Positions 1-61,782 of a DNA stretch of 64,000 nucleotides are shown in pieces. The stretch comes from Schmidtea polychroa (Eukaryota): NCBI GenBank assembly GCA_044892525.1, contig CM097886.1:15810001-15874000 (forward strand), in the 5' to 3' direction. Within the stretch, counting starts at the first letter, position 1. Each line of letters starts with the position of its first letter. The notes beneath the pieces are model-generated. The model had not been told where the DNA came from and searched no databases. It was given only the letters and a program-made list of their open reading frames with translations. Both the position numbers and the translations under genes were made by a program.

Positions 1-366
1 TGGTCATAAAACAATTATGCGCGGTTGCTAGGAGGATGCGAACAGGGTGAAAGAGATGGTTATATAAGTTCCTAAAAGTGAAAGAGATTCCCCACTCGTA
101 ACCCATCATCACTAATGATTTATTACCATAAACATTTGCTTGCTTTCTATTACACAATTAAAATTCATGTTATGTAAAACCGTTAAAACCAACACCCCTC
201 TTCAATCAGCATGCAATATTATTTCATCAAGCAGATATCAAGCAAATCACAAACATAAATTAAAAACAAAAATAAACATATATATATTTATTATCAATAC
301 AAAACTGTTAATAAAATGATATCATAACAACACAGCCATTTTGTAGGGTAAATCTACCAGCTATCT

Positions 367-6300: not shown

Positions 6301-9300
6301 ATCATTGTGTATATATGTAATACATAAACCAACATTAAATATAATACATAAATTCATTAAAATATTAAATAAAATATAAAACATAAATTCATTAAAATAT
6401 TAAATAAAATATAAAACATAAATTCATTAAATAACAAATAAAATAACATAAAAATTCATTAAATAAACAAAATATAAAATTCATTGCACAGAAACAGTTT
6501 GTAACTTTCTTTTTTTAATTCTAATTCGATGAACTTGACAATTCTAAGTCGATTACCGTTTTTGTAGACTGGTTATGGTTTGGTTCTCGTAATGTTACAG
6601 TTAAAAACTTGTCTAAAGTTTGCTGAACTTGTACAGCTTTTTTCCATATATATTTCTTTATAGTAATTGATAGCGTTATCAATAGTTCGCGTAACCGTTA
6701 AGCGTCGATTTTCGTCAGGGTTATTATCTACAAAAAATTTCCATTGCCTGTGAAATGAGTTGCATTGCTTTCGAAATACAACGAGCCGTTAACTGTTTTT
6801 CTTCTGGAACTATATCAGGAACTATTTCAAAGACAACGCAACTTCGAAAACGACGAAAATCAAGGTTTTAGTGTACAAAAGTTATAATATAATATATTAA
6901 ATAGTGTTTGTAGGATTGTATTATGTTCACATTGCAAATGAAAACACATTGAATTCTCCAAGTTGTAGTTATCAGTTTTATGTTAAAAATCAATTTTGGG
7001 GAAATCCTTTGAATATTTAAAAGTTAGTATTATATGCATAAGAATAAGAATTTCAATAATCTTAATACATCTTGTGATATTTTTCCAATTTACTGAACCA
7101 GTATAAACTAAACAATTTGGATCAGCAATCGAATCAACAACAACAGAATTTGTTTTACTGGGATGTATCGATGACAATGAATATAAAAGCCTGAAAACAG
7201 GTGTCTTGAAATTAAGGAAAACAAAATGGTGGGAAAACTTTAAACAATTGGAAAAAGAATTCTCGTCTCGACTATTTTGCATTAGTTACTATTACTATCC
7301 TTTTCTAAATATTTTAATCATAGACTTTATAATGTAAAAAAATTTGAAAAATTGCCAAATAGCGATCCGGAATTTTGAAATAAAAAGGATGATTGTGATT
7401 GGTTGCAGGGAAATTTGATCAAGAAAAAAGGAAGAGCCGTAAAATGTAGAATTAGTATTGAAATTCATAAGGCCAATAAAGCAAGGCTAAAATCAGCCAA
7501 TTTATCCACTATATTCGCAACTATTTTCTTTTCTTAAAATCGTTGTTTAAAATAATCAAATCAATTAAAATTATCCAATAAAAATAATAATTTTTTATCT
7601 TTGAATATTTCGTTTAACAAATCTGTTATATTTTATAAAATTCAATACAATCAATATAATAAGCATATTCCAATCAATAAATTCAATAACAAAAATCGAT
7701 AAAATCTTACTGATATATTGGAAAATGTTCAGTGATATTATATCTTGTGGGAAATAGAGATTGACAGTAGCATCAGAGAACATCAAATCATAGAGCGGTT
7801 GCGGAGCAGACACGTCTCCCGTTTGTCCAAGCAACAACAATAAATTCGAGGACAAGTTGAACACAACATTCGATTGGAACAAATTGAAATTGGACGACAA
7901 TGTTCCATTCGGGCCGAAATAACTGATAGCGATATTTAGAAAATCCTTATAAATGGGAATTCGAGTAGAAACCAGTTGCGTCATAAGCATTCTCGATTGA
8001 GGTTTGCCCCAATTGCACGCTTCTATCTGATTCAGTGCATTTACATAAGTTCCACTAAACACGAATTATCAATAATCACAACCACATAAACGGGAAAATT
8101 ATCTAAATTCAGTTATAGAGGAGCTTTTGCATATCTATAAGTAAATCTTATTCAACATCTCAACAGACTCATAAAGCGCAATGCGTGATATAAAGGATTC
8201 CACAATCTTCATGTGGATATCAATCTTCCTAATCTATAGAGATGTGAGTCGCTGACACGACGTGTTTTGATTCATCTTTTCTTTAAGTAAGAATGCCTTT
8301 ATTTATACTTTTTGTTTAAAATCTTTCTCTTAAGTTTCTCAAAAAGAAACACATAAAGGAAATAATTATAGAAAATGAAGAAAACGTAAAAAAAAGTTTT
8401 TGACCGGAAAAAGCTCATTGAATTCTTTATGTTTGATGGAATATAACATTCAATCCTTTAGGTGGAATAGCATTATAGTTACGACTTGGATTTTATGACC
8501 ATCTGGATTATACTTCTGATTTCAACAATTGGTCGAATAGATTTACTTGCTTCATTTTCTACAACTTGAAAATACTCGATACTCTCGATAAATAACTTTG
8601 TTTATTTGTTTTAAATTGCTTTTCCGATCTCTAAATGTTTTTTCGGACATTTTTTCTCTTCACTTTTTCGTTTCATTTTCAATCAATTTTTTCGTGTCCG
8701 TCTACTTATTTTAAATCCAAATTGTGTTTCACTTTTATACTCTGCCATCTAATAGTACTTGCAGGTAATTATTTTGATTTCTGCCTACAGCACATTCCTT
8801 TGGGTCATTCTTAATTCCTCTTCTGTCTCAGGCAGCTGTCGAGACATACAATTTTATTTTGTTATCTCTCTTTTTATTTTTTTGACTTCCCTTCCTACTT
8901 TGTTTTTCTTTTTTCTATTCTTCTTTAGATTTTACGTGTTAATTAATAATGGCCGGTTCTAGGACAAAATGGTATCGAACGAAATAGTACCAGAATTAAA
9001 TGGTAGGATAACAAGTTTATATTTTTGAGAGTTAAGATTTTAAATAACATCCATTTTGAAGCAGTATATTAATGATTAGTATAGTAATTAAGCAAGTTGT
9101 CTTTATTTTAGAATAAATGTTTGGCTCTTTCCGTCGTTAATTCCGATATTTTATCAATATAGAAAATTAAAGATAACTTATATTTGGCCGTCCTCTTAAA
9201 TTTTCTATTAACAATTAGTCTATATAATATAACATAATAAAATGCATTTTTATTGGTTATCTTTCAGTTTAGTTCGTTATTTTTTATTCATTTTAACCTT

Positions 9301-12300
9301 GTCATATTTCATTTTTAAATTTATTAATTTTCTTTTCTCACTTATGTATTCCAATGATGATTGCTAAACTAAAATGGAATCAAGTGAAATCATAATTGGT
9401 GAAGATGGAGTCGTGGATCTTTTAAAGATGCAACATGTCAATCGATTAGCGCGTAGAAATGCTTGAATGGTAAAAATAGAAGTGGCATTGTTCAATGAAT
9501 TTAATTATTCGCAACACTTTCAGAATTTCTATAAATAAAAACTGTTATAATTCCAGTTGGGTAAAGAAATCAGTTTTTCCAGCTTTTCATAATAGTATTT
9601 GTGTATTGTAACAATTATGTAGTAAATGTCGATAAATATCTAGATTTTTCTCCCCGTGTATTCGAGGAAAGTATAATTATTTTCATATCACTTCTATTGA
9701 GTATAAATCAAATTTTTTCGACTTTTGTGGTTTTATTCAACACACCTTCAATAGACATAAGTTAAATATACCCCTCCCCAATTGCGGTAAAACAAACAAA
9801 CACATGGATATAATATATCGATTTATTTGTTTAATGAATGAATCATGTTCACTTGTTTAAACGTGGATAGTAAACTTTGTATTTACCTCATTGAAATGTA
9901 TTATTCAATAATCAGTTTATTGATCGGTAGAGGGGAGTGGGGAGGGGGTTTATTCCTTTGTGTAGAACATGGATGGCGAACCTTTTTTAGATTGCGTGCC
10001 AATATTTTAAAATTGAAAAATAAAAACACGCTGGCGTGCCAAGTACATTTTTTAGCATTTTAATTGATTCCGTTACATTCCGTAGTTATTGTTCTCCATA
10101 TCGTTCAGTCCACCAATCTTGGAATTCCCTGCCACTTCCTTCTTCTGAAAGTTTTATTTTTTTTGCTTTGAACACGACATTTTATTTAGCAAAATTTCTA
10201 TTTTTAAATTATTAAATATTTACAAAAAAATATTTACAAATCTTTCACCAATAATATTGTCAACAAGATTTCTGTGTCATCAAATTCGTGCGCATCTTAA
10301 CTTGTTTATTTTTACTTGTATATATATATATATATAATAATATATATATATATATCGTAGGCAAATGGTAATTTTAGGAAAATAACATTTGGCTAGGCAA
10401 ATGCCATTTGCCTGGTCAAATAGCTTTAGCTATTATTTCATTTCCATTTGACTAGGAAAATAGCATTTGCCCAGGCAAAAGCCATTTGGCTAAATCTTTG
10501 TTGGGCAAATAATTCTAATGTTATTAATTTCGAAGTTATAAAGATTTGAAGAAAAAAATTGAAATAACCAAATTAATGGTAAATAAAAGTAATACTATTT
10601 TTAAGGAATTAGAAATCGGAGCTTTCTTAGTATTGGCAGTTCCAAAATTTGATAGAGGACCACTAGACCAAAAAAATATAGAGGGCATTATTACTGATAA
10701 AAAAATGGTGTTTATCGAATTGGGACCAACGTTGGAGTGTTAAAAAAATTGGTTTACTCGAAACGAACTAACAAAAGTGTCGTCAATAAGTTTTGAACAA
10801 AGTGATATTCCCCATGAAAATTGTATATCTTTACGAGAAGCATGTGCTTCAAAATCCATGTTTGCAGGCCAGGGATTTACGAAGTGCCAGTGCCAGCCTT
10901 CGAAAAACCAATGCAATACTAAAATATGTGCGTGTTTAAAAAATAACCATGTATGTAATAGTAGTTGTCAATTCAAGTAATCCTTGCCAAAATAAATAAA
11001 TATTTAAGACTTCTTATGCTCTCAATAAATAAGTATATTTTATAATAAAGAAAATACATTTAGCAATATTGTGTCACCAAAGAATTCGAGAATAAGAAAT
11101 ATTTATAAGTGAGGTTAAATTACGTGTAAGAACATTGATTACAGTGCTTTATTACATTATTGCATTGGAAATGATCAAATTTGCCAGTAGGTTGCCTCGC
11201 TTCACTTAAGAACAATCTAAGAAAACTTAATGGTCAAGTATAACCTAACCTAAAAATTCGAAACCCAGAATGTAAATTCCAGCTGTGTTCTTTAGCAGTA
11301 AAATATATCAATAATAATATTAGAATTATTTGCCCAACAAATATTTTCCTATTTTCCTAGTCAAATGGAAATGAAATAATAGCTAAAGCTAGTTGCCTAG
11401 CCAAATGTTATTTTCCTAAAATTACCATTTGCCTACGACATATATATATATATATATATATTCTATTGTTCGATTCCTAGTTAACGGTTTCTAAAATATT
11501 TGCACAATAAAATCATGCTGAAGTGTTAATTGCGATTTCAATGATTTTATACTACTAAAATTTACACAAATTTGTTTTATCTCAAAGGTTTGGCGTGCCA
11601 CACGAAATCGTCTCGCGTGCCATAGGTTCACCAGCGCTGGTGTAGAACGTATTTAAGTGAAATTGGTTGCTTATCCAATCCCATTGATAGCTTCTAATCA
11701 TATTAATAAAATACATCTTTTCACAATCAATTTGAAATGGTCTTAATAAGTATATTCTCCAAAATAATGAATAAATATCGATTTATGTGCAATTTGGAAA
11801 GTCACCCTGCCTCTTTAAAAAATTTCTTTTTTTTTGAAAATGTGGAATTTATTCAACCAATTGAAATGCTATAAATTAATTTTTTATTTAATATTTACAA
11901 ATATCTTTAGAATAACTAATTTATCGATTTTTAAGTGTTTTTCGATTTATTTATCCGTACGCAGCACATTGGAAAAGCTTTTGTAATATCGAAATCCAAT
12001 TTTATTTCCCTGTTCATAATTCACTTGTAAATAAACTAAAACTTATCGATTTTAATTTTTGCCTATTTAGAATTTACGATAAATATCAATGGGAACTCAT
12101 TAAAAACCAGAAAAAGCATCAAATTTACTCGGCTTGAACGGTCGGACAGAGCAGCTGGTAAAATCCGGCCAAATTTGGATTGTTGGCCACCCAATTCGTG
12201 AGAGTATCTCCACGCAAGAATGCCACCGATTTCTGGCCGGATATTCGAGCGGAATCAAGACAACTCATCGATCCGGCGTTACCGGCATATGGATCGGAAT

Positions 12301-13107
12301 TCGAGCAGAACCGTCGACTGTCACTGGTATTGGAGCACTTACTGCAGGCGAGATTACCGTTGTCGCCGAGCGCATTGAAAACCGGATTAGCACTGCCGAC
12401 AGCGCACGAGCCACTTGTAAAAAACCCATTCACGATTTTCACTTCATTGTTACATGTTGTGATATTCATCCATTGATTTTCAACCATTTTTGACAGAGGG
12501 TAAATCCAGCCTTCCGCTGTGCCAGTACCTGATTATAACATCAAACGTAATACAAATTCATGTTTATAATGGTTAGAATAAAATTCGAATTTTTAAAAAT
12601 TCATAAAATTATTTCCAAAGCCAACCTGCAAAACAAGCACTTGTTCCATTTAGCATGATTGGTGATGAAACTGTTCCTTTTATTACAACCACTACTGAAG
12701 TATAGGATAACTGCATTGTAGCTGGATCTGTGTTAAAATTGTAATTTTCTACAGCAAACATTCTCATTCCATAATTTTGCACAGCATAATACGCCAATCC
12801 AACATCTAAATTCACGATATCTGCTTGACGTTGATTGATTAGGTTCATACAGTCAAAAGAACTTCTGGTTAGCACACATGTGAAATTATATGTCAAGGTA
12901 ATGTTAGTAACACCTATTTGATTAACAAATTGAGTGCATTTAATATATTCCGATTCACTTATAACGCACCATCTTATATCTTATAGTTACAGAAATTAAC
13001 AACAATAAAATATACAATTATTATTTACCTTCAATATTTTCTACATGTAAAAATAATGATAAAAATAGTACTATAGGTAATAGAGAATTTAATTTCCCGT
13101 TGAACAT
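367..13107 (-). CDS. MELTF: Melanotransferrin-like, two-lobed transferrin family, predicted GPI-anchored (about 810 aa, 10 exons)
   Basis: Hand-spliced exons: 13107-13029, 12979-12626, 12528-12129, 8054-7711, 6047-5771, 3163-2964, 2913-2682, 2634-2422, 2388-2329, 640-367. All junctions are GT-AG with consistent phases and sum to 2433 nt. The protein has a signal peptide (MFNGKLNSLLPIVLFLSLFL), transferrin motifs in both lobes (IRWCVISESEYIKC, LKWCVISDDEMLKC, NYYAVAIAK, YYGDSGAFRC, GDVAF, YELLCPDG, DLMFSD) and a hydrophobic C-terminal tail (YIFIILTASFSFFFFL). Confidence 0.93.
667..2230. repeat. 47-bp minisatellite, about 33 units, with partial 141-bp higher-order trimer, in the last intron of the MELTF-like gene
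   Basis: Unit AATATCG(A/G)TGGAATTTGTGACAAT(A/T)ATATTGATTATAT(CAC/AAT)T(A/T)AAT(C/T). Trimer starts recur at 1483, 1624 and 1765. Confidence 0.97.
3494..4132. mobile_element. Non-autonomous hAT element (MITE)
   Basis: TIR CAGTGCTTTTT..TCTG at both ends. Perfect 8-bp TSD CTTATATA (3486-3493, 4133-4140). Subterminal GTTC(C/T)GGCACC motifs. Confidence 0.88.
4380..4810 (+). pseudogene. Degenerate Tc1/IS630-type DDE transposase remnant
   Basis: Broken frames read FSIDKVGF, NLSICAVISVDG, DNG*FH and IENSFSKWK, resembling the Tc1 DDE motifs. Confidence 0.6.
5227..5379. mobile_element. Small foldback MITE (about 150 bp)
   Basis: Imperfect inverted arms TAGGTCCTGATCACTCAAATACAAAATTTAA and TTAAATTTTGTGTTGGAGTGATCAGAACCTA. 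Confidence 0.75.
6161..6873. mobile_element. Non-autonomous Tc1/mariner(pogo)-type element
   Basis: TIR CACTAAAACCT(C/T)GATTT at both ends, flanked by TA. Contains an internal A-rich tandem repeat of about 35 bp at 6340-6485. Confidence 0.72.
9968..11639. mobile_element. Non-autonomous hAT (Buster/Charlie type) in a MELTF intron
   Basis: Imperfect TIRs CATGGATGGCGAACC and GGTTCACCAGCGCTG. 8-bp TSD GTGTAGAA, which fits the Buster nnnTAnnn target. Subterminal GCGTGCCA motifs. Confidence 0.85.
10353..11440 (+). mobile_element. Ginger2/TDD-like DNA transposon (internally deleted) nested in the hAT element
   Basis: Near-perfect TIR of about 48 bp, T(G/A)TCGTAGGCAAATGGTAATTTTAGGAAAATAACATTTGGCTAGGCAA, inserted in (TA)n. 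Frameshifted remnant 10546-10980 has PKFDRGPLD and a Cys-rich GQGFTKCQC..CNTKICAC..CNSSC end, typical of integrase-type transposases. Confidence 0.72.
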
Positions 13108-24534: not shown

Positions 24535-25108
24535 TTGATATTGTAATTTAAATAATTGGCATTATCCGGTATCAGAAAATCACAGTTTGTAAGTAGGCTA
24601 TTAAGTATCAAAGCAGTGTGCCTCTTGAACAATTAACGATAAATGAATTTTAAATTGTCCTTAATTAAATTGATTTCGAATTCTGATGATGTCATTGAAC
24701 ACACTCAAAAATGACGAGGTTACATAACACGTATACTAGTATGCTGGTATTTATCTACTAGTAGAATTGGTGTCGATGTCAAAAGCATCATTGTCTACTA
24801 ATTCCAGAAATATTATAGCATGCTTTGCTTGAGTGTGTGCTGAAAACGCCCGCATTTGTTGAATTTCTATTTGAGCACTGCACAACTCAAAATCAATTTT
24901 CACTGACGAATTTTTTGTAATTGGAATTCGAACTTTGCTCAATGATATCTTTGATTTTCTAAACGTGTCATTGTACTACTATCAAGCGATAACCGTTGAG
25001 GATAAGAGGAGGGGTGTACGGGTCTCAAATCAAATCAAATAAACCTTAATTAAGGCATACATACACAAATGTCTTTAGGTTACAATTACAATTAATTACA
25101 ATTATAAA

Positions 25109-25166
<58 letters not shown>

Positions 25167-27510
25167 TAATCAATATTTTATTTACTTTTGTTATCGGAAT
25201 ATTCACTTGTGCCGGACGTCGGTACGAGAAAGATGCGGCGTATTGGTTGCGATTGAAAGCATTATTCATTACAGGTAATCGGCTAGAAGTTGAAGACGAT
25301 GAAACTAGATTTGAAGTTGAATTATTAACTAGAGAAATTGACGGAGAACTTCTGCCATTGGGAACACTATTGACTGAATTGTAAAGCGGATGTAAAGGTT
25401 TTTTGATTTGACAAATTTGAGGCTGAGAATAAGTTTGATGTTGATAATCAGTATTTCCCGGTTGTGAAATAGCCGGCTTAGTGATCGTTATAACTGGACT
25501 GGACGGAAGACTGACACTGCTTGGGACTGGAGATTTTGCCCGGGGAGCTTTTTTCTGATTTGTGTCGACATTGCATTCGAATGTTGACGAATTCATAGAG
25601 AGTGACATTGAATTCCTAGCACTTCTAGAATCTTCCTGATCAGTGTCGGGATTTTTAACACATGCGGCTTTTAATTCTTTCACCAACTCCTTAATTGTTG
25701 TAACGGCTTTTCCAGCATCTTTGAATCGGAAAACGAAATAACCTTCTCCCGTTGAACATTTTCTTCCAGCTTCCAATCGAAGAAGATCATTCTTAGCTCC
25801 GAATCTGAAATTTAATTGAAATTGTCAGCAATTTCTACAATCAAAATAATTCAGATCTAACATAACGGTTATGAAAAAGAAAATAAATAGTAAAAAATGA
25901 ATAACATGTCACGAGAGAGTTTGGTATGAAAATTGGTTCGTAAACTAAATTGAAGTTATAGATATTAATTTGTACATGAAACCTATTTTGTGAATGTATA
26001 GTATACATTTATGATTGTAACAGATTTCTGACACTTGATAACAACATAGCCACAAACTAGATCTTAATAAAACTTTGTTTTCACATTACACCGGTCACAC
26101 TTTTATTTATCACCTATATTTCTCCATTATCAGATGGGTCTCTCGATGCGTCTATAGCCAATAAACCATATACCATTAGAATGTATTAAAATCCAAATAT
26201 TCTCAAAAACTTGGATTCAAAAATTATTTTTAAAAACCTCGCAATTAATANNNNNNNNNNNNNNNNNNNNNNNNNNNNNNNNNNNNNNNNNNNNNNNNNN
26301 NNNNNNNNNNNNNNNNNNNNNNNNNNNNNNNNNNNNNNNNNNNNNNNNNNNNNNNNNNNNNNNNNNNNNNNNNNNNNNNNNNNNNNNNNNNNNNNNNNNN
26401 NNNNNNNNNNNNNNNNNNNNNNNNNNNNNNNNNNNNNNNNNNNNNNNNNNNAGTAAATCATAACAAGGGTTTCAACGAATATATCATAAACATCGAATTA
26501 AATGTTTTTCTAGGTAGAAATTAGTTTAATTAATTAATTTAAATTAATTTAAAAACTAATCTCTAATTTATAGGTTAAAAATTTGCTACAATTAAATAAT
26601 TGAAATTAATTAGAAATTATTCAAGACCAAATGTAAGGATCGAAAAAATACCGGCGAATAAAAATGTATGGGAATTCATGGAGAGCTTCATTGCGCTTGA
26701 TGTCGCACAATTCAATGCCTTCAGGATTCAATTTCATGATGTAGCTGCCCTTTATTCCCATCCTTCTTGAGTCCTCGGATTCCTCAATGCAAACTGTGTA
26801 AACATTGTCTAAATAGTGACTATGATGGCATGGTTGATACCAATTAACTCAGCCTACCGGAACTTGTTGATTCGTATACTTCATTATCGTCCATGGCAAA
26901 ATAGATTTCTTCGGATTTGTAACTGAGATACGATTGCGGAGAATTCGGAATGATGCTCGAGTTTTCGTCATTGTATTTGTTGGAATCAGGCGCGTTGGAT
27001 TTTTTCGTCAAAGTCGACATGATATCGTCAGACTCTTTCTTATCAGATAATTCTTTAGTTTGTCTATTGTTTTCTCGTTTGATTGTCGCATCCTTATCCA
27101 CATTATCTGTCAGTTTTGTGGATTTGATTTCGTTGTCTTTGTTTTTATAAATGTGTTCTCCCAACAAGCTGCACCATTTTGTCAGGTCTTCTTCGTGTTC
27201 AGGAATGAAGTACAGTTTTTTCGAATTTAAAATTCCCGATGGAATGAGTTTGATTGCGAATTTCTCTGTGTTGTAAAAGTTTACCGGCTTGATTTCACTT
27301 GACTTGAATTCTGATAGATTGCACAGGACTTTCAATCCAATTGATTGGTTTAGTTTAGATCGGTAAATGGTCGACACATTTGAGAAGTTAGAAATCCTGC
27401 TTTGGTTGTCATCTTTATCATCATTTGAATTGGAAATTGATGATAATTTTAGCATAGAAATTTGATTCTGTTTCAGAATTTGGGCATCGCAATAAATCCA
27501 ATCAATCTAA
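24172..27510 (-). CDS. Dok-like adaptor protein (PH domain, IRS-type PTB domain, tyrosine-motif tail); 5' end unresolved
   Basis: Exons about 27510-26858, 26808-26652, 25804-25186 and 24429-24172 splice in phase. PH-like end KKLYFIPEHEEDLTKWCSLL. PTB FPYIFIRRFG..LRLEAGRKCSTGEGYFVF resembles Dok WPY..LRRYG..FEAGRRC.SGEG.F.F. Tail has YDNIP and YDNVP. The first coding exon was not identified. Confidence 0.78.
24434..24535. repeat. Compound (TTA)n(GTA)n microsatellite in a Dok-like intron
   Basis: Seen directly. Similar (TTA)n tracts occur at about 25110-25165, 48420-48515 and 54865-54940. Confidence 0.95.
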
Positions 27511-28591: not shown

Positions 28592-29159
28592 CCTACTGAT
28601 AATCGTGAAATACTCCAAATCACTGGAGCTAGGAATCTCGATGATCTTTCTGAGAGTAATTGATTAAACCGATTATCAGATCAGGTTCTTCTAATTAACT
28701 TTATCTTTACACCGAAAAATAATTTAAGCTCCAAAAGTTAGATTCATTATTTAAGCTTGTTATCATATAAAATCAGATTATTATAAACCTCAAAGTAAAT
28801 CTTTCAGTAAAATGCGTTTTATTACAAATAATTTCAATGATAAAGTGTATATTTTAAGAAATATATAAAGTTTTAAATTTTATTTGTAATTTTTTTACTT
28901 ATTAGAAAAAATAAATTTCATTTATTGAAAATAGTTTTGGTAGCTGTACCTGACGTCTAACATAATTTTTAATATATAAATTAATTTATTAGGATTATTT
29001 TTTTTAGATATAAATGGAATAAAACTTTGTGCTTTCATATTACATGAAAATAATTATAACTAAAATATTAATATTTAGTTGCGTAATCAATCGAGTATTA
29101 CTTAAATAAATATTTAATTGCTGAATTAATATTTTAATTATTTAATTGTTGCCACCACG

Positions 29160-29976
29160 ATTCATCTTGGTAATACACTCATAGCAAATATTCTGTAAAT
29201 AGACAACATAATATGTGAGAATNNNNNNNNNNNNNNNNNNNNNNNNNNNNNNNNNNNNNNNNNNNNNNNNNNNNNNNNNNNNNNNNNNNNNNNNNNNNNN
29301 NNNNNNNNNNNNNNNNNNNNNNNNNNNNNNNNNNNNNNNNNNNNNNNNNNNNNNNNNNNNNNNNNNNNNNNNNNNNNNNNNNNNNNNNNCATGACAATTT
29401 TATTGCACTGAATATCATAAGTTGTCTTTGAATGTAGTTTCGTTTCCGAATAACTTTCAGCCTCCAATTGCTTTCCACCAACTGCAACAGCTCGATGTCC
29501 AGCTACAAAGCCACTGGGATCAGTTTTGAATAATAACGGTTTGTCCATTTCAATATCATAGGATAATGCTATCATTGAACAACCTAATGGTCGCATCTCA
29601 GCCGATTGGGTGTAAAGCTGATTAATATCCGCAATACAACGACATATTATGTCACAAGGCGTTTCATATCCAATTTTAAATTAAAATCTAGCTGCTTCCA
29701 TTTGTGCACGACATACTTGAGATTGACAATCAGGGATCATACCAATCATAACACCTCTAGTACTTTCAGTACTTTCAATCTTGTAGCTGAACTCTTCTCA
29801 ATCATTTTATCTGGAACTTTTCTTTGTGTAGCTACTACACCACAATTATTGCCTCGAATACCAACGGAAAGCAGTCCATCTAAGGCAATTGCCTTAAGTG
29901 CATATTCGACTTGGAATAATCTCCCTTCAGGTGGCAAAATAATCTTCGCTTCCATATTTCCTTTCAGAATACACAA
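29160..29976 (-). pseudogene. PSMA6: Intronless, disrupted proteasome alpha-1 subunit copy
   Basis: PEGRLFQVEYALKAI..TQRKVPDK and ADINQLYTQSAEMRPLGCSMI..KTDPSG. There is a 1-nt frameshift near 29770, an in-frame TAA at 29681-29683 and a degraded N-terminus. An N gap spans 29223-29389. Confidence 0.82.
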
Positions 29977-30040
29977 ATTAAATCAAATCGCAAATTCGAA
30001 AAACAATGGCTACACACTTCCAGAACTGATTCCTTGATTC

Positions 30041-30130
30041 GAATAAACAAAAACTTATTTTCTACCAAAATCCTTAAAATTCATAAAACAGTGAAACAAT
30101 AAACCTACTTCTCGCGTCTGTGTGCGCACA
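30041..30130. repeat. Direct repeat R, copy A (88/90 identical to copy B)
   Basis: GAATAAACAAAAACTTATTTTCTACCAAAATCC...CTACTTCTCGCGTCTGTGTGCGCACA. Overlaps a 16-bp inverted repeat (30112-30127 and 30157-30172). Confidence 0.95.
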
Positions 30131-30215
30131 CCAACAAAATTCGGTCAAATCATACCGCGCACACAGACGCGAAACAAAGATTTTCCCAATAATATTTCCC
30201 ACGGGTCTGCCACTC

Positions 30216-33082
30216 TTAATGTGTCCATTCTCTGGAGAATTCACCCTTCTGATCTTCCAGAATCAATGATACCCCCGCATCTTCAATTTCTTCACTAGTA
30301 AGGTCTTTATTTTGCCGTTTCATTTTTTCTTGTTTAAGGTTTTCGACGAATCTATTGAGCCAAGCCCTCGTGCGGACCAGTCTTCGCCAGTTAGAATAGG
30401 TCCTTGGATTTAAGCAACTCGTCTTCCACACTGGTTCGGAATCATTCTTTGTCGTAGTAAGGTAAGAGCTCTGAGTCCAGTTCTGATTCTTGGTCTCTTG
30501 CAGTCGCTTGCTTCACCACCTTGGCCAACTCTCCTCCCCCTCCTGTAGAAACCTTGGTCCTTCAAACCACAACTTTGAATCTCTAAGTTCTTCAGCTCGC
30601 ATTCCCCTAGATAGAAAATCCGCGACGTTTTCCTTTGTGGGCACATACCTCCATTGTGAGCTCCTTGTCGAACGCTGAATTTCCGCGACCCTGTTCGCTA
30701 CAAATACTTTACAATTACAACCTAATTGCGTTATCCAATGCAAAATGTCTTCACTATCCGTCCAGAAGATGATGTCTTGGATATTGGTCTTCCAACATTG
30801 AGATATCTTAAGTCCCAATCTCACCCCTAATTCTGCTGCCAACAGCTCCAGGCGTGGAATGCTCACTACCTTGATCGGCGCTACTCTAGATTTAGCCGCG
30901 ATTAGGTTCGTTCTGACTCTTTCCTCTTGACTCTCTCTGACGTAAGCTACGGCCCCATATGCGCATTTTGACGCATCTACAAAAACGTGAATCTTAGACT
31001 CACTATTTGCGTCTCTAATTAAACATCTTCCACATCTGACTGCATTTAAGGTTGGGAACTCTTTCAACCACCTCTCGACCTTTCTCCATAAATCTTGTGG
31101 TAATAAGTCATCCCAATCCAAACCCGCTAACCAAATCTCTTGCATCAACAACTTACCCCTGATCAGAAAGCTTCCTGATAAGCCCAAAGGGTCAATTATC
31201 CTCACTAAGCAACTCACAAATCACCGTTTCGAGAGCCATTGTTGGGTTGGAGGTTTGACATCGTAACCAAATTCATCTTCCGCCGCAATCCAAACGAGCC
31301 CAAGAGTATTTACTGCTACCTGGTTTCCATCGTTCAGGCTTAACAGCTTTGATATCCTTTCCACAGGAATCGTTTCTAACACCTTTTTTTCATTGGTGAG
31401 CCACTTGTTTGTTAGCATTCCTGCGTGTTCCCAGATATCATTTATTTCGTCCTTGACCCTAATTGCTTCCTCCGCCGACTGAAAGGAATCCATCGTATCA
31501 TCCATGTACGTGGACTCTATTATTGTTTCCGCCGCCATTGGAAACTTCTCCTGAAACCTCTCAGCGTTCTGCCTCGTGACCAACTGCGCCAGAAACGGAG
31601 ATATATTTAGTCCGAAAACTAGTCTTTCGAATTCAAATCCCTCAGTTTCTCCATTTTCAACCCACATGAACCTTAAATATTTCCTATCATCCGGGTTCAC
31701 CTTTATTTGTAAATACATCTCTTGTATATCACAAGCAATCGCTACAGGATATCTTCTGAATCACAACAATATCTCGAACAAATCATTTTGTAGCTTGGGG
31801 CCTTGTTCTATGGCATCATTTAAATTGAGACCATTGTTTTTCGCCGCTGCATCGAAGACTATCCTAATCTTGGTTGTTTCCTTGTTTATCCTTATCACTG
31901 GAAAATGTGGCAACCACTTCGTCTCACAAAACACCTTCTCCGCTAATACCCTGATATACCCTTTTCGCACATAATCATCAAGTACGTCTTTGTAACTTTC
32001 TTTTAACCGGTTGTCCTTCTTTAACCGTTTGTCTAGACTCGTCAAACGGTTCTCAGCCATTTTTACATTACCTTGAAGTTGGTACTTGTTCTCCTTCCAT
32101 AATAAACTAACCGTAAAACGCCCACCCTCGCACGACCTTCCTTTGATCGCCTTTTGCATTAACAATACTTCATTTTGGCTAAACTGGTTCTTCTCAACGA
32201 ACGTCTCCTCAATTTCCCAAAATTGCCGTATCTGATCTTCCAATCTCTCTGTTTTCGAGAAATAGCACTGCGAAAGGTGCGAATGCCGAGGGGATCCTTC
32301 ATTACTGATTTTGCCAAGGCATGTCCATCCCAGAGGCGTCAATCTAGCGACCGGCTCATCCATCGCTCCTACTACTTCTCGAATCGATCTATGCAAGTGT
32401 GGATAATCTGGACCGATCAAAACATCAATATGTGGCCTTTTCCCTAACACTGGGAATCGAACATCTTTTAGGTGATTCCAATTACCGGCCCTTCCTTGCC
32501 AATTAAAGATCCGGGAATCACTAGCGATTTCTTTGACCACCAGGACGTCAAAGTCCATTTTCACTTTGTTATTGTCACTCGCCAGCGTAACTCTTGCCGG
32601 TTTTTCCTCTAACATCTCAGTCTTTCCCCCAATCACGCCAACTGGAACGTTTCTCCATTGTCCTCCAACCTCTAATTTCTCCGTGGCCCACTTGCTAATG
32701 TAACTTACGTTGCTTGCGTCATCAAGCAGCACATTCACCCGCACTTCTCTACCGTCTCTAATCAACTTGACTGGAATCGTCCTCAAAGGGATATACTTCT
32801 TTTCACCGCGCTCTTCGCGACAAGTTACCATTGACATGTTTTCATTTATCACCTTCACTTGACTATCCTCAGCTTTGCAATCTGAATCATGCAAAAGGAA
32901 ATGATGCTTTGTTTTGCAACTTTTATCCTTACAGAAGCTGGACCTCTCGCAGTTCCTGGCGAAGTGGCCTCCAGCTAAGCAGTTAAAACAAAGTCTTAAC
33001 TCTTTGACAAGCTCGTTTCGTGCAGCTACCTTTAATTTTAAAAGTTCCGGACACTGGTTCAAGTAATGTTCAGATCCACATT
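30216..33082 (-). mobile_element. BEL/Pao LTR-retrotransposon internal fragment (gag Zn knuckles, protease, RT, RNase H; no integrase)
   Basis: CFNCL..H...C knuckles, protease LLDDASN, RT motifs WLPHFPVI..TTKIRIVFDAAAK, RLVFGLNISPF and YMDD, RNase H FVDASKCAYG..AKSRVAP..PRLEL and WRYVPTKENVAD. A single reading frame interrupted by three TGA codons. Confidence 0.95.
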
Positions 33083-33172
33083 GAATAAACAAAAACTTAT
33101 TTTCTACCAAAATCCTTAAAATTCATAAAACAGTGAAACAAAAAATCTACTTCTCGCGTCTGTGTGCGCACA
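33083..33172. repeat. Direct repeat R, copy B
   Basis: Same orientation as 30041-30130. The hairpin region is collapsed to TCTGTG-TGCG-CACAGA. Confidence 0.95.
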
Positions 33173-35305
33173 GATGCGAAACAAAAAGAAACGCGAAACA
33201 GACTGCCAGTCAGAGGTAAGTGACATTCNNNNNNNNNNNNNNNNNNNNNNNNNNNNNNNNNNNNNNNNNNNNNNNNNNNNNNNNNNNNNNNNNNNNNNNN
33301 NNNNNNNNNNNNNNNNNNNNNNNNNNNNNNNNNNNNNNNNNNNNNNNNNNNNNNNNNNNNNNNNNNNNNNNNNNNNNNNNAAAGTGAAGTAGAAGAAGAT
33401 ATAATATAAGATGATTAATTTTAATTTCCATTTTAATTACCATTATTCTTTCTTTTTAAAATGCATATCAACATTTTTATAAATACTAATATGAAAACAT
33501 ATGAAAAATAAAAGAAGGTTGATATAACTTTGAATTTAATATTTAATTAGTCTTTGCATGATTTACTTCTGTGGAATATGGATATTTGCACTTCATTAAC
33601 AACTACTAAAATATAAATGTTTTTAAACCGGGGCAATAAATCATTCAAACTTCTGTTTCTTCAGTGGCAATAATAGGTCTGCGTAACAAATTTCTAGAAA
33701 ATCAACATTTTGGATTCCAAACACAGGTTCGCTTTTTGTTAAGAGGCGTCTTTTGATTGAATTCGGTCTGTAACAAGAAATTACTATGGAGTCATTTTAA
33801 AAATCTGTATTGGGACAGATGTGGTGCTTGTATATTATTAATCAAATAATTGGAGTGTGTGCGTTTGTGCAGTTTGTTTGAAACCCAAAAAATAATAATG
33901 TAATAAATTTATGTAAAAATTAAATACTTTGAATATCCTTCAAATGGTTGCAATGAATATTTCACAAAATAATTCTTTCAGATTTGATCCATTCATTTAC
34001 CTATTCATTCTCGACATGAGTTATTAGGAAACGAAATATTCTTTTCCAATTTATTTTTAAAATTTTCTCGAATAATTTTCAATTTACCTAACTTATAAAC
34101 AATTTTTTTTTATATATTTATCAATTTTTCAATTATTTTGTTGAATTGATATTATTTTTAGGTGGAGCATAATATTCTCGATCAGAATAAGAAACTCAAC
34201 ATAATAAATTTTATTTTGTACTAAAAAACAACAATTGTTTGTATTTTTAAAAGATTAAAAAATTAAAAGATTTCGCTTGATATTAGGGGCAGGTTTACGT
34301 TCTGAATATTGCTTCTCGACATTTCGCTTTTGTTTAACCACTTGGCTGCTTTCTCTCTTCTATCGTTATGGAAATTCGACAGTGTTTTTCACTTTTTTTG
34401 TAGTGCTTTTGGGATATTAACAAATTTTAGATAGGCATTTTGTCTCGATCTGTTATCAAAACCAATAATCGAATCCTAACATAATAACTTTTGCCGATAC
34501 TAGTAGATCGTTATGTGTCCTCCAGATCCATGTGCACTCCAGATCCAGCTACCCCCCCCCCATTTTTTCAAAGAAATTTTTAAAGATCCTCCTACTTTTT
34601 TCTTTTTAATATAAATTTTTGTTTTAATTATCGATTACGTAATAATTTAATTTTATTTAAATTATTTATTGCATAATAATTTTAATTTTTGTTTTATTTA
34701 TCGATTACGTAAAAATTTAATTTTGTTTAAATTATTTATTGTGTAATAATTTTAATTTTTGTTTTAATTATCGATTATGTAATAATTTTATTTAAATCAT
34801 TGATTACATCATAAATTTTAATTTTTTATAAGACTTTTTTATGTCAATATACTTGAAATTTAATTCCCTATTAAATGAGACTATGATGTAATCAAAATTC
34901 TGAAATTTTATTTTTAGTACACCATTTTTGAATTTACACATCTTTTTAAACAAATCTTTCTCATTCATTCCTTCATCTTTATTGAAATATTTACAAACCA
35001 ACATGTTTTAGTTACAAAAATAGTTATCAATAAATCGAGTAAGGGTAGGAAATTATTTAGAATCAATAAGTAATACACAGACCTTAGTGTAATAAATGCT
35101 AATACATACTACAATAAACCTACTCACATGCGTATAAATATATTAAAAACGCACATATTAGCATTATTATTCAATACATACAAGTCATAGAGGTCAATCA
35201 CATACTAACCAACCAAAATCATTCATTGATATTGCATCTTTATTGCATATGAGTGATATCAAAACTGTAAAATTCATTACATCATTAAATTATCTTCTAT
35301 TACAG

Positions 35306-36653
35306 CAGGGGTGTCAAAATCGGTTTATACACCCGTTTCCACATGTTAAAAGTCTCTATAATGCATGTTGGTGTGTTCATCTATCGATGACTCACCATTT
35401 ATGAGAATGTTTATTTCATTTTTTCATTCTCAATTCAATTTTATTTATGGTTTCAGAAGTAAGTTTTTTAAATTTAAGTATATTTTAAGGCTTGAATTTT
35501 GATTTCATATAATTATGAGATCATTATTCAAGCTCTTAAATATTACTTGTAATCAGCATTTATAATATATTTATAATATATTGATAATTAAATTTCAGGT
35601 GCTTTTTTAGGTATTTTATGATATGTTATGAATTTGGAATTATTTCAATAAAATGTAAGTTATATATATTTTTAACTAAAAAGAAATAAAATAATCACCA
35701 AAAACATTTATTTTTTTAAAAAATAATGGTTCCAATCGATTTTTTGGAGATTCCCAGTAATCTTCCAAAATCTTTATAATTTTCTCCATTTTCATATGCA
35801 TTGATGAGACGGATTTTGTCATTTTCTGAAATTCTTTGAAAATATTATTTTTTTTTAGTTATTAAAATTTACGATTTTCGAATTTTTTTCTTCAATTCCA
35901 AAGATGTCAATGGAACTTGTTGAATATCTTCACACAAAGGCGTTTGACTAGAAATATCTGATATGCTGTAAAATATTTTAATTATTTGTAATTAAATAAA
36001 AAAATTCTTACATTGTCAGATCTTCACCTTCGCAAAATGGAAATGTCTCCAAAGAAATAATTGAAAATCTAAAGAAATATTAACTTCAAAAATATTTTAT
36101 AAATAGATCTTACGATGTTTTGTCGTCCATTTCTCAAAAACTCAAAGTTGAGTTGTCAGATTCAAAATCCAAATTTTTTTCAGCCATGAATTTTAATAAT
36201 TTTAAATTAATGATATGTTAACAGTATGTTAATGACTCTCTACTTTCGGAACAAAAAAACCTATATTAAATTTGCGTGTATTTTATATTATGTGTCCTGT
36301 GTTTGTATGAAAAATTATTTTTCTGTCACTTTCTCAATTCCTATAATAAAACTTTCTACATTCGGAACATTAAATTTTTGCACACAGGTAAGTTTGTGTG
36401 TTGCTATAATATAATTTTATCGATTTTTTTTTAGATTATAGAAACTCTTATATTGTGGAAACGGGTGTACAGAGGGTCACATTTACTATTATTGCACATC
36501 ATGTGGGCCGCATAATATATTTTTCTGATACATACATACACATACACATATATCCTATTTTTAGGCGGTAAATTATCAATAACCTGTAGTGGGCCGAAAA
36601 GTTATACGTTGTGTGCCGCATGCGGGCCGCGGGCCGCAAGTTTGACATATCTG
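35306..36653. mobile_element. Non-autonomous hAT (Buster type) nested in the long-TIR element
   Basis: TIRs CAGGGGTGTCAAA and TTTGACATATCTG. Perfect TSD TATTACAG. GGGCCGC subterminal repeats. Confidence 0.88.
35330..36467. mobile_element. TA-flanked DNA transposon nested in the hAT element, unclassified
   Basis: TIRs CACCCGTTTCCACA and TGTGGAAACGGGTG, with TA on both sides. Confidence 0.72.
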
Positions 36654-39600
36654 TATTACAGTGTTATACAGTAAATAATTTGATTATAACTTGTTTAAAT
36701 ATAAAAGTAAATTTTATAGTTAGTTTTTTAAATTCAAAGTAAAGTTAATTTGTATATAAAATAATTTTATAACTCTATTTTAGAACAGAAATTCAATATT
36801 ATTTGTGATAAAATTTCAGTGGCTTTTTTGAAAATTCTTTCGCTTCTATCCAGAGAACTACAGTTTATTGTTTGCGAAACTTTATCTCAGTCATTAATGG
36901 GTAGTTTAACTTTAAATAATAAATAATGTGATATAAATTTATAGATGAATTCAACTTACTGTCATTAGCTGTGGATATATGAATGAAATTCGGAAAGAAC
37001 TAGGTTTATTTCTTTATCCTAATATAAATATTTTATTAATTAATTTAAAGGATGCTCATATTCTGTTTTATTAGATGGTTCAATAGATTTCTTTGTTTAG
37101 GACTTCGCCAACTAAGTAATTGATAATAATAATTAAAATGAAAAAATAAATACAAATTTGTTGATATTATTAGAATTTGTTCTCAGAATAAAATCTTAAA
37201 AATAATAATAATTAATAATAATTAATAATAATACTAATAATTATAATAATAATAATGCTAGATTACCGACAAATTCGAGAGAAAATTAAATTATTACGTA
37301 ATCGATGATTAAAACAAAAATTTTAATTAAAAAGAAAAAAAAAGTAGGGGGATATATTTAAAAATTTTTAAAAAAAGAAAAAGTGAGGGGGGGTATCTGG
37401 ATCTGGAGTGCACATGGATCTGGAGGACTGATACTAATTCTCCAGTGATTTATGAGTTTTCCCTGAATTATCAATGAGGTTAATTAATTAATTAATTAAT
37501 TTGTATTATGGTTCTAGACCCTCTTAGGAACATCTCATCAATTTAAAATCATTTTATAAGTCCTCAGGTTCTCATTCATCACCGGTTACCACTTCCCCAT
37601 CCGAAAATAGTGATTTTTACTTTTTAAAATATTTTATTAGTTTTTAATTAATTTATAATAATTTTCAATTTTTCGTTATGTTGTATACCGTTTTTTAAAT
37701 CTCTCAGTAATTTTTTAATTAATTTATAAATTAAATTAGTCGTCCACGAAGAGTCGAAAAATATTTAATAAAAAAAATTATTTCTACTAAAGTTTAAGTT
37801 ATCATGTATTTCAAGCTCGGAAATATTTTTTATTGATTAAATTGATTTGTTTATATTAATTAATCATTCGATTAGTTTATATTTCTTAAATACCATTGTC
37901 TAAGGATCCCCAATAGATTTAAAATTATTTTATTAGTTTCACCTCTTCATTTGATACCTGTCCATTCTTTCCGAAAAATATTAATTTTTACTTTTTATAA
38001 TTTTTAATTAGTTTTGCAATTCAATTTTATTTTCTTGTTTTATGTTAAATTTTGTATTTTAATTGTGTTGCATACAAGTTTATTTATTTTTTATAGTAAA
38101 TGCCTAATTTATTAATTTTTAATAATACAAAGAGCTTCTTGTGTATGAGAAAAAAACAATACCACTGAAGAGAATGAGCGAACTAGAAATAACAATAATA
38201 AACATTACGCGGGGATAGAATATTTTGAATATGAAAAATTGGGAAGAATTGATACATTTTTATTATTAATCTGTTCAACCAGGCTCATTTCTGTTGATGG
38301 TATTAAAAAATTGAATGCTGAGAATTCTAAATGCTAAAACCAATAATTTAAAGAGATGAGGATAAATGCATTGCATTGAATTTTCGGCTCTGCCTTTTCA
38401 AGTGAGTTTCAAATTTACTTGAAAAAAAAGACAGTGCCGAAAATTCGTGAGTATCAACAAAAATCGATATATTACTGATTTATAGTCTACAAACTCTCTT
38501 TTTAATAAATTCAATCTAAAAAATAATATAATATGATATTTCTCATTTATTTATACTATTTATTTCATATGTGTATGGTTTATATGGTTATATTTATAAA
38601 TACATACTCATAGGTACAAATAATTCAAATAAACTCGCTATCTAAATAAACGATATACCTTATATGCTGTATTCTCAAGTACTTTTAGACTTAGAATATT
38701 TTAAAATAAGTAGGTAACTGTATTCAATAAAGAAAACAGTTATTTTCTTTCTTTTTTTATTAGTGAAACGTATTATTCTGAATGTAATATATAACAAATT
38801 GCAATAAATTATTATTTCTTGTATGCGATTTCTCTCAAGGCCCTGCTAGGAAACTTTGTACTGCGTCCCACTTTTGTTTGGGCCAGCCCTGCTGTTTGAT
38901 TAGGTTTTTCCACGCTACTCACAAAACGTACGCATCTTGCTCATTAGAAATGATAAAGAGCTTAAAAGAGGATAATCGCTTGTTTGGCCATATTGTTTTT
39001 AGACTGACTCATCTATATTTTTGTTTATTGGGATAAATAAAAATTTTAGTTTTTCAAAACTTCTCATCATCAAAGATAAGTTCTTTAGAGAAAATATGTT
39101 CAGTTGTTTAAATGAATGACTAAAAAAATCTAGAAACTAGTTACTAATTTAATTTCGAAATATGATTTAATATGAAATTCGAATCTGTTAATTTGACATG
39201 AATTCTCGAAAAATCGTGAATGAGATCTATCTGGTGTTGGACTGATTTGAAGGAGTAAATAATAAAATTAAAAAAGAACGATAACACACATGGTCCGTAC
39301 GCGCCGGAATGACCGAGCTTCACTTGAGTTGTGGTAGGACTAAATTCATGTTGTTAGAATAATAAATAGGTCATCGATTAGAATGAAATCCTGCCTCGCG
39401 TTAAATGACCAATTGAATCCCATAAGGATTGTGGCTATTTTAAGATGTGTGAAACTCGGATCGAATTGTTTTTACGCCGATTAAAATTTAAACATCTTCG
39501 AACTAACGTTCAGTTGACTAAATCTACCACCGACTGGACTAGATCATATTCTACTGACTTACTACCTCATCGCAACCTACTCTGAGTGGACATGCTGATA

Positions 39601-40900: not shown

Positions 40901-56969
<16,069 letters not shown>

Positions 56970-59322: not shown

Positions 59323-61782
<2,460 letters not shown>

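What the first reader, a model, noticed from the sequence alone, without database searches (positions are those of the whole stretch)
29160..33228. One hairpin-bearing leader placed in front of two unrelated cargos (BEL/Pao fragment and PSMA6 copy)
Seen: on the minus strand the order is R - BEL/Pao gag-ZnF to RNase H - R - intronless PSMA6. The two R copies are 88/90 identical. The retroelement is cut at both junctions and lacks the gag N-terminus and integrase, so this is not an ordinary LTR-internal-LTR element. Copy A has a perfect 16-bp stem with a 29-nt loop and a 12-bp palindrome GTGTGCGCACAC. It is preceded by TGGCAGACCCGTGGGAA (30212-30196), which loosely resembles a tRNA primer-binding site. 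Copy B joins in frame into the first Zn knuckle (TTT ATT C|AA TGT GGA), suggesting microhomology. Inference: R may be a retroelement leader or packaging/dimerisation-type signal that picks up different RNAs by template switching, giving a gene-capturing non-autonomous retro-system.
Basis: partly seen in the sequence, partly recalled or inferred. Interest (0 to 1): 0.75.

Follow-up and report, generated by a model that had tools for sequence, protein, structure and literature searches.

The report
Proteasome gene piece riding a retrotransposon
This is a broken copy of a known kind of jumping gene whose end repeat likely carries a piece of the host's own proteasome gene PSMA6, a piece that appears to be repeated hundreds to thousands of times in this flatworm-like genome.

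Summary
The layout is real: R - BEL/Pao gag-to-RNase H - R - PSMA6 piece, with the 88/90 repeat and the 16-bp hairpin. The 'PBS-like' motif is pol coding sequence. R is not the PSMA6 5'UTR. Contigs from public runs show that in other copies hairpin A is preceded by the sequence in front of copy B, which starts TGT. So A and B are most likely the 5' ends of two LTRs of one dead element that lost gag N-terminus, PBS, integrase and PPT by two deletions after insertion. The PSMA6 piece (about 510 nt, about 96% like the parent-like contig) most likely lies inside the LTR. It and the hairpin have 126-254 times the summed contig depth of the BEL interior in two DNA-like runs (inferred: hundreds to thousands of copies). 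The listed variants keep its reading frame. This copy's own junctions were not bridged by any listed contig. The scan already reported BEL/Pao LTRs with other host-gene cargo on other DNA of this genome; PSMA6 cargo and its amplification are new here. Verdict: new variant of LTR-mediated gene capture.

The parts
33229..33380 (.). assembly gap (152 N)
33083..33225 (-). copy B: likely 5' end of the 5' LTR, starts TGT at 33225; hairpin lacks the 35-nt loop; cut at 33083
   Evidence: 9 of 15 listed joints link 33189-33198 to hairpin A; LTR identity inferred
30196..33082 (-). BEL/Pao interior: gag Cys-His boxes (first Cys lost), protease, RT, RNase H, connection; stops at 31763, 31223, 30515, frame break near 30220; no gag N-terminus, no integrase
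   Evidence: 7.8 bits, 0.11% of 5467 null peptides reach it, 2 nt from the collinear position
30041..30178 (-). copy A: likely 3' LTR lacking its first ~47 nt; 16-bp hairpin 30112-30172, then T-rich tail
   Evidence: LTR identity inferred
29953..30040 (-). leader ending in an ATG (29955-29953) in frame with the PSMA6 piece
   Evidence: a similar leader+ATG joins PSMA6 at another codon boundary in other copies (table 7, read by eye)
29434..29941 (-). captured intronless PSMA6 (proteasome alpha-6) fragment, parent codons about 15-184; frame break 29779-29770, stop at 29683
29390..29433 (-). 44 nt of unidentified sequence after the PSMA6 piece
   Evidence: parent-like contig leaves here; no Pfam hit when read across the gap
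29223..29389 (.). assembly gap (167 N)
29147..29222 (-). candidate 3' end of the 3' LTR, ending ...ACA at 29147 before very AT-rich DNA; untested
   Evidence: read; GC step; no Pfam or PDB hit

Best explanation
The block is a decayed BEL/Pao retrotransposon copy whose two R repeats are likely the 5' ends of its two LTRs, and the intronless PSMA6 fragment likely sits inside the LTR, captured from host mRNA by an inferred reverse-transcriptase template switch and then amplified with the LTR family to an inferred hundreds to thousands of copies. Steps: (1) shown: BEL/Pao interior, direct repeats at both ends, host-derived PSMA6 fragment behind an in-frame ATG, very high contig depth of hairpin and PSMA6 piece. 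(2) inferred: capture into the LTR, copying into both LTRs at each cycle, spread mainly as solo LTRs or non-autonomous copies. (3) inferred: after insertion this copy lost two blocks by DNA-level deletion near the hairpin (rest of 5' LTR + PBS + gag N-terminus; integrase + PPT + start of 3' LTR), plus the loop of hairpin B, and picked up about 2% private changes, so it cannot move. (4) inferred, weak: the cargo frame is translated in live copies, which is why variants keep the frame.
For: (4 runs of 4 studies, contigs only): 9 of the 15 listed joints (26 not shown) join hairpin A (30172-30179) to B's upstream sequence (33189-33198), in X2, X5 and X7, so A and B are the same element end. B starts TGT, as Sinbad LTRs do (PMC554778 passages). 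Summed depth of PSMA6 piece and hairpin is 244 and 254 times the BEL median in X2, 166 and 126 times in X5; in X2, 41-72 contigs carry the listed variant at each of five PSMA6 positions against 1-11 in the BEL rows. The T-rich tail and leader have low depth like the BEL interior (X2 1278-3640, X5 about 290; table 4), as expected if this LTR subfamily goes with this interior. Parent-like contig X10 record 1 is 3.8% different, leaves the window at 29941 into the true N-terminus, not into R; X7 leaves at 29434 into the parent C-terminus, which matches P0151. Related BEL contigs (X7 record 25, X5 record 17) run on past the knuckle into other sequence, not into R, so the B junction is not the family norm. 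PBS-like motif is pol. Both listed deletions inside the PSMA6 piece keep the parent frame and a second leader-ATG joint falls on a codon boundary. Three stops in 954 codons imply about 1.9% private change, close to 3 of 103 differences between A and B. Earlier notes on other DNA of this genome describe BEL/Pao LTRs with host-gene pieces (leads, not evidence).
Against: No PBS, PPT, TSD or complete LTR is visible in the window, so LTR status is inferred. No listed contig bridges either junction of this copy; the exact copy seems absent from the runs (best share of words 0.43; in X2, 22 of 33 listed BEL rows have no contig with the window's letter), so a misjoin is not excluded. No listed contig spans hairpin and PSMA6 together; their link in the abundant copies rests on similar depth and on the leader. 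One X7 contig has a hairpin variant followed by 255 nt of other sequence, and 21 X2 contigs have another tail. Summed contig depth is not a copy number (tool's own caution); the bound of 108-4605 assumes long BEL contigs are single-copy. The 3 bases before TGT match the candidate target duplication in only 2 of 3. Nine amino-acid changes in 76 against P0151 (67 of 83 identical including the unrelated tail) give no sign of protein-level constraint. Sequence look-ups found no match to the earlier notes, so family identity with them is untested.
Confidence: 0.68

Rival explanations
1. One reading: R is an internal leader or packaging signal behind a PBS that picked up two unrelated RNAs (BEL gag-pol and PSMA6) by template switching, in a non-autonomous element.
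For: R precedes both pieces; strong hairpin; some R copies lead into other sequence (table 7); internal capture with further amplification is documented (PMC5131818 section 5).
Against: The PBS-like motif is pol; the sequence upstream of R starts TGT and shows no tRNA-like continuation by eye; related contigs run past the knuckle into other sequence, not R, and none listed shows R joined to gag; the R tail has the same low depth as the BEL interior.
Confidence: 0.12
2. R+PSMA6 is a separate high-copy unit (non-autonomous DNA or rolling-circle element, or a tandem repeat) and a BEL fragment lies between two units by insertion or deletion.
For: Hairpin and PSMA6 are over 100 times deeper than the BEL interior; both BEL junctions are unnatural; hairpin-bearing high-copy Helentron derivatives exist (PMC4067079 passages).
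Against: No subterminal inverted repeat pair and no short 3' palindrome found; the hairpin lies near the 5' end; start is TGT, not a T run; cargo is intronless over about 170 codons; tail depth matches the BEL interior.
Confidence: 0.1
3. The arrangement in this contig is a misassembly of high-copy repeat pieces; only the R+PSMA6 family and the BEL family are real.
For: 3839-bp contig between two gaps, GC 0.42 against 0.26-0.31; no listed contig bridges the junctions; copy not seen in the runs.
Against: Neither junction lies in a repeat shared by the joined pieces, the interior is collinear with homologs over 954 codons, and decay of interior and repeats is alike.
Confidence: 0.1

Closest known systems
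LTR-mediated retroposition in animals (Tan et al. 2016, PMC5131818; abstract, passages and section 5 read)
   Same: Partial mRNA piece, truncated at both ends, no poly(A), joined to LTR-element sequence; Pao/BEL elements among the carriers; captured loci can be copied again.
   Different: There the retrocopy replaced part of the internal ORFs and had a few insertion sites; here it likely lies inside the LTR behind an in-frame ATG and is inferred at hundreds to thousands of copies. Microsimilarity at the joints could not be tested.
BEL/Pao LTR retrotransposons (Sinbad, PMC554778 passages; de la Chaux and Wagner 2011, PMC3118150 passages)
   Same: Triple Cys-His box, LLD/LIG protease motifs, YxDD RT, DAS RNase H, Peptidase_A17 hit, repeat starting TGT.
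   Different: This copy lacks gag N-terminus, integrase, PBS and PPT; the passages read mention no host gene inside LTRs. Superfamily (Flow, Sinbad, etc.) not assigned: best homologs are only 40-51% identical and no named references were held.
Maize Bs1 (as described in PMC5131818; otherwise recalled)
   Same: LTR element carrying spliced host gene fragments.
   Different: Plant element; fragments of three genes lie between the LTRs.
Earlier notes of this scan on the same genome (e1-7907883, e1-7907913, e1-8073268, e1-8072467; unchecked AI notes)
   Same: BEL/Pao LTRs said to hold host mRNA pieces in a reading frame.
   Different: Other cargo (DUSP12, perilipin, eIF4A-III, ubiquitin); no note mentions proteasome; no ubiquitin found here; sequence identity of the families untested.

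Membership tests
BEL/Pao LTR retrotransposon | triple Cys-His box in Gag | tested here: met
   boxes at 33080 (first Cys lost at the junction), 32990, 32933
BEL/Pao LTR retrotransposon | protease LLD + LIG motifs, RT YxDD, RNase H DAS in that order | tested here: met
   32729, 32420, 31508, 30977; Pfam RVT_1 1e-10 and Peptidase_A17 1e-43
BEL/Pao LTR retrotransposon | integrase after RNase H | tested here: not met
   no homolog of 40 aligns beyond 30219; most have about 420-450 more residues. Read as a deletion in this copy.
BEL/Pao LTR retrotransposon | direct terminal repeats, TG...CA | tested here: inconclusive
   direct repeats at both ends and TGT start; only about 140 nt are paired; 3' end is a by-eye candidate behind a gap
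BEL/Pao LTR retrotransposon | PBS after 5' LTR and PPT before 3' LTR | tested here: not met
   both places are occupied by deletion joints; the proposed PBS is pol; no tRNA genes in the window to compare, no genome held
BEL/Pao LTR retrotransposon | target site duplication | tested here: inconclusive
   only 3 bases visible before TGT; 2 of 3 match the candidate 3' flank
LTR-mediated retrocopy (Tan et al. 2016) | partial, intronless host mRNA piece without poly(A), joined to LTR-element sequence | tested here: met
   whether the parent gene has introns was not testable
LTR-mediated retrocopy (Tan et al. 2016) | microsimilarity at the switch points | not testable with these tools
LTR-mediated retrocopy (Tan et al. 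2016) | cargo replaces part of the internal ORFs | tested here: not met
   cargo lies downstream of repeat A, not within gag-pol
LTR-mediated retrocopy (Tan et al. 2016) | further rounds of copying | tested here: met
   depth ratios 166-244 and dozens of variant contigs per position; copy number itself inferred
Helentron-derived HINE / DINE-1 | subterminal inverted repeats, short 3' palindrome, T-rich ends | tested here: not met
   against features in PMC4067079; part of the unit is hidden in a gap

The most novel reading that the evidence does not exclude
A BEL/Pao family has turned its LTR into a translated cargo cassette and has spread about two thirds of an essential proteasome gene to thousands of sites; the cargo helps the element, either as a truncated alpha-subunit protein or by making piRNA silencing of the element costly to the host's own PSMA6 mRNA.
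Probability: 0.15. Interest if true: 0.78.

Novelty: new variant of a known kind. Interest (0 to 1): 0.47.

Why it matters
Known animal cases of LTR-mediated capture are low-copy chimeras in the element's interior. Cargo inside the LTR is copied twice per cycle and survives as solo LTRs, which would explain how a piece of an essential housekeeping gene reaches hundreds to thousands of near-identical copies. That gives a testable case of conflict between transposon silencing and a host gene, and a practical warning: PSMA6 probes, RNAi fragments and read mapping in this animal would cross-react with the repeat. This particular copy is dead, and similar cassettes were already noted elsewhere in this genome.

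Tried and rejected
No genome is held, so the genome-wide BLAST of R and the tRNA comparison could not be run. Rfam on 29000-34000: one chance hit (E 0.83), nothing on R. No tRNA gene in the window. No third R copy in the window. A 22-nt R pattern found 0 matches in metagenome contigs. PBS reading rejected. R as PSMA6 5'UTR rejected. Ubiquitin at the candidate LTR end, suggested by an R-G-G read by eye: 0 hits in Pfam and PDB. Fused PSMA6-cargo proteins: none seen among 30 hits, 0 hits or the 11 of 150 listed representatives whose sequence I read. No RNA holder is listed on record; X7 and X10 are only guessed to be RNA, so nothing is concluded on expression. The source of P0151 could not be looked up. 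Literature: seven searches listed no paper whose title or abstract start describes host-gene pieces inside BEL/Pao LTRs or PSMA6 capture in flatworms; only listings were seen except for the five papers cited, most subscription papers and Repbase are not held, and supplements were not read (PMC3118150 file 9 gives LTR lengths by superfamily and may bear on the LTR size).

Full report
Setting. The finding coincides with one 3839-bp contig (29390-33228) between two N gaps, GC 0.42 against 0.26-0.31 for the other six contigs. No whole genome is held. The best named relatives of the PSMA6 piece are flatworm proteins at 57-66% identity, so the host is flatworm-like; earlier notes call it planarian-like.

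Observation. The two R copies (30041-30130, 33083-33172) are 88 of 90 identical and occur nowhere else in the window. Copy A has the perfect 16-bp stem with 29 nt between the arms; it folds far better than shuffles as RNA (z -6.15) and DNA (z -6.44). Reading, the likeness goes 13 nt further upstream (12 identical), and copy B equals A without the 35 nt of the loop region; B keeps a shorter hairpin. Rfam gives nothing on R.

The retroelement part. Pfam finds RVT_1 and Peptidase_A17. One frame of 954 codons from 33080 holds the three Cys-His boxes (first Cys lost), LLD and LIG protease motifs, YMDD and DAS, with three stops; these are the hallmarks listed for Pao/BEL elements in PMC554778 (passages). 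The proposed PBS (30212-30196) lies where homologs have the short conserved stretch that follows the connection helix. A score matrix from the 64 of 118 homologs anchored there gives the peptide read from 30220 7.8 bits, reached by 0.11% of 5467 control peptides, 2 nt from the collinear position; the match fades after about 9 residues. Related BEL contigs align down to 30208. It is pol sequence behind a frame break that related contigs do not share.

The PSMA6 part. It aligns without introns to flatworm PSMA6 from residue 15 on, with one frame break and one stop. An ATG at 29955 is in frame with it. In one search a 555-nt contig of run X10 matches 29466-29941 with 3.8% differences and then goes on for 75 nt that, read by eye, encode the normal N-terminus and lie on nothing in the block; so the parent's 5' end is not R. 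An X7 contig leaves at 29434 into a sequence that reads as the C-terminal part of P0151, an 89% identical PSMA6 found. The captured piece is therefore 29941-29434, about codons 15-184, followed by 44 nt of unknown origin.

What other copies look like (four runs of four studies, contigs only, lists cut to the best supported rows). Nine of 15 listed joints connect hairpin A (30172-30179) to the sequence in front of copy B (33189-33198), with variable linkers, in X2, X5 and X7. Thus A and B are the same element end, and A has lost its first ~47 nt. That end starts TGT at 33225. Summed depth of the PSMA6 bins is 244 (X2) and 166 (X5) times the median of the 20 BEL bins; the hairpin bin 254 and 126 times. 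Summed contig depth is not a copy number; taking long BEL contigs as single copies and allowing up to 31-fold overcounting gives 108-4605 copies for the PSMA6 piece and about 20 for the interior. Variant counts agree: 41-72 contigs per listed PSMA6 position against 1-11 in the BEL rows of X2. The T-rich tail of R and the leader are only about as deep as the interior (table 4), and 21 X2 contigs swap the tail for another, so the window holds one small subfamily of a very large family. Two listed deletions inside the PSMA6 piece (one X2 contig each) keep the parent frame, and in X5 and X7 a similar leader with ATG joins PSMA6 at a later codon boundary (29835) (letters read by eye). That is three of three such events in frame, from truncated lists, so it is suggestive only. 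Against protein-level constraint, this copy has nine amino-acid changes in 76 against P0151.

This copy's junctions. X7 record 25 aligns to exactly 33082 and goes on for 473 nt of other sequence, and X5 record 17 behaves alike, so relatives do not join R to the knuckle, and no microhomology is seen there. No listed contig bridges either junction. The exact copy seems absent from these runs (best share of words 0.43; 22 of 33 listed BEL rows in X2 have no contig with the window's letter), so the joints are unverified and a misjoin remains possible. Three stops imply about 1.9% private change, similar to 3 of 103 differences between A and B.

Mechanism. Most likely (0.68): LTR - gag-pol - LTR, with the PSMA6 piece inside the LTR. 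Capture by template switch in the particle is inferred from the precedent in PMC5131818 (section 5 and passages). Once inside an LTR, cargo is copied to both ends each cycle and persists in solo LTRs, which fits the depth excess (established LTR biology; inference here). The two large deletions remove PBS and PPT, so they must postdate insertion, and the copy is dead. All three deletions end at or near the hairpin, which may be a breakage or slippage site (inference). The role of the hairpin in live copies (promoter part, strand-transfer or packaging signal) is untested.

Comparison. It works like LTR-mediated retroposition and its interior is BEL/Pao by tested motifs; as a whole element it fails integrase, PBS and PPT tests because of deletions, and LTR ends and target duplication are inconclusive. 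It differs from the cases in PMC5131818 in cargo position and in scale. PMC3118150 (passages) reports planarian Flow families and PMC6431247 (passages) planarian Burro elements with host-like domains in their ORFs; the passages read describe no cargo inside LTRs. Four earlier notes on other DNA of this genome describe BEL/Pao LTRs with other host-gene pieces; they suggested the 'inside the LTR' reading, I could not check them, sequence look-ups found no look-alike, none mentions proteasome, and no ubiquitin was found here.

Verdict. Real feature, partly misread; new variant of a known kind; interest 0.47. The boldest reading left open (0.15) is that the cargo is translated or shields the family from small-RNA silencing (the shielding idea is recalled from plant gene-capture literature and comes from no call).

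Noticed in passing
window 10332-11461: Element of about 1.1 kb with long imperfect terminal inverted repeats (80, 70 and 35 nt arms, 89-94%) between TA runs; looks like a decayed DNA transposon.
   Followed up: partly
window 34512-37433: About 2.9 kb element with long terminal inverted repeats (56 and 67 nt arms) and a 70-nt subterminal tandem repeat; a second inverted pair (35328-35362 / 36435-36469) is nested inside.
   Followed up: partly
window 565-2232: 47-bp minisatellite, about 34 copies.
   Followed up: no
window 59534-61296: hAT-like transposase pieces (Dimer_Tnp_hAT 1e-4, DUF4371 9e-4).
   Followed up: partly
window 40904-42314, 2280-12980, 25105-27506: Host genes on the minus strand: Su(H)/CSL exons (BTD, TIG_SUH), transferrin-family exons, and an IRS-type PTB domain gene. 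The studied block lies between the Su(H) and PTB genes.
   Followed up: partly
window 29669-29738 (X10 record 2): A 108-nt contig with a 70-nt, 14% diverged PSMA6 piece and other sequence on both sides: a further rearranged PSMA6 copy in a run guessed to be RNA.
   Followed up: no
window 33142-33169 and 30157-30184: The left arm of hairpin A plus 12 upstream bases is complementary (24 of 28) to the right arm of copy B, a little further than to its own right arm; may be chance in AT-rich DNA.
   Followed up: no
window 29147-29222: One frame ends ...RGG just before the candidate LTR end, like a ubiquitin-type C-terminus, but without database support.
   Followed up: yes
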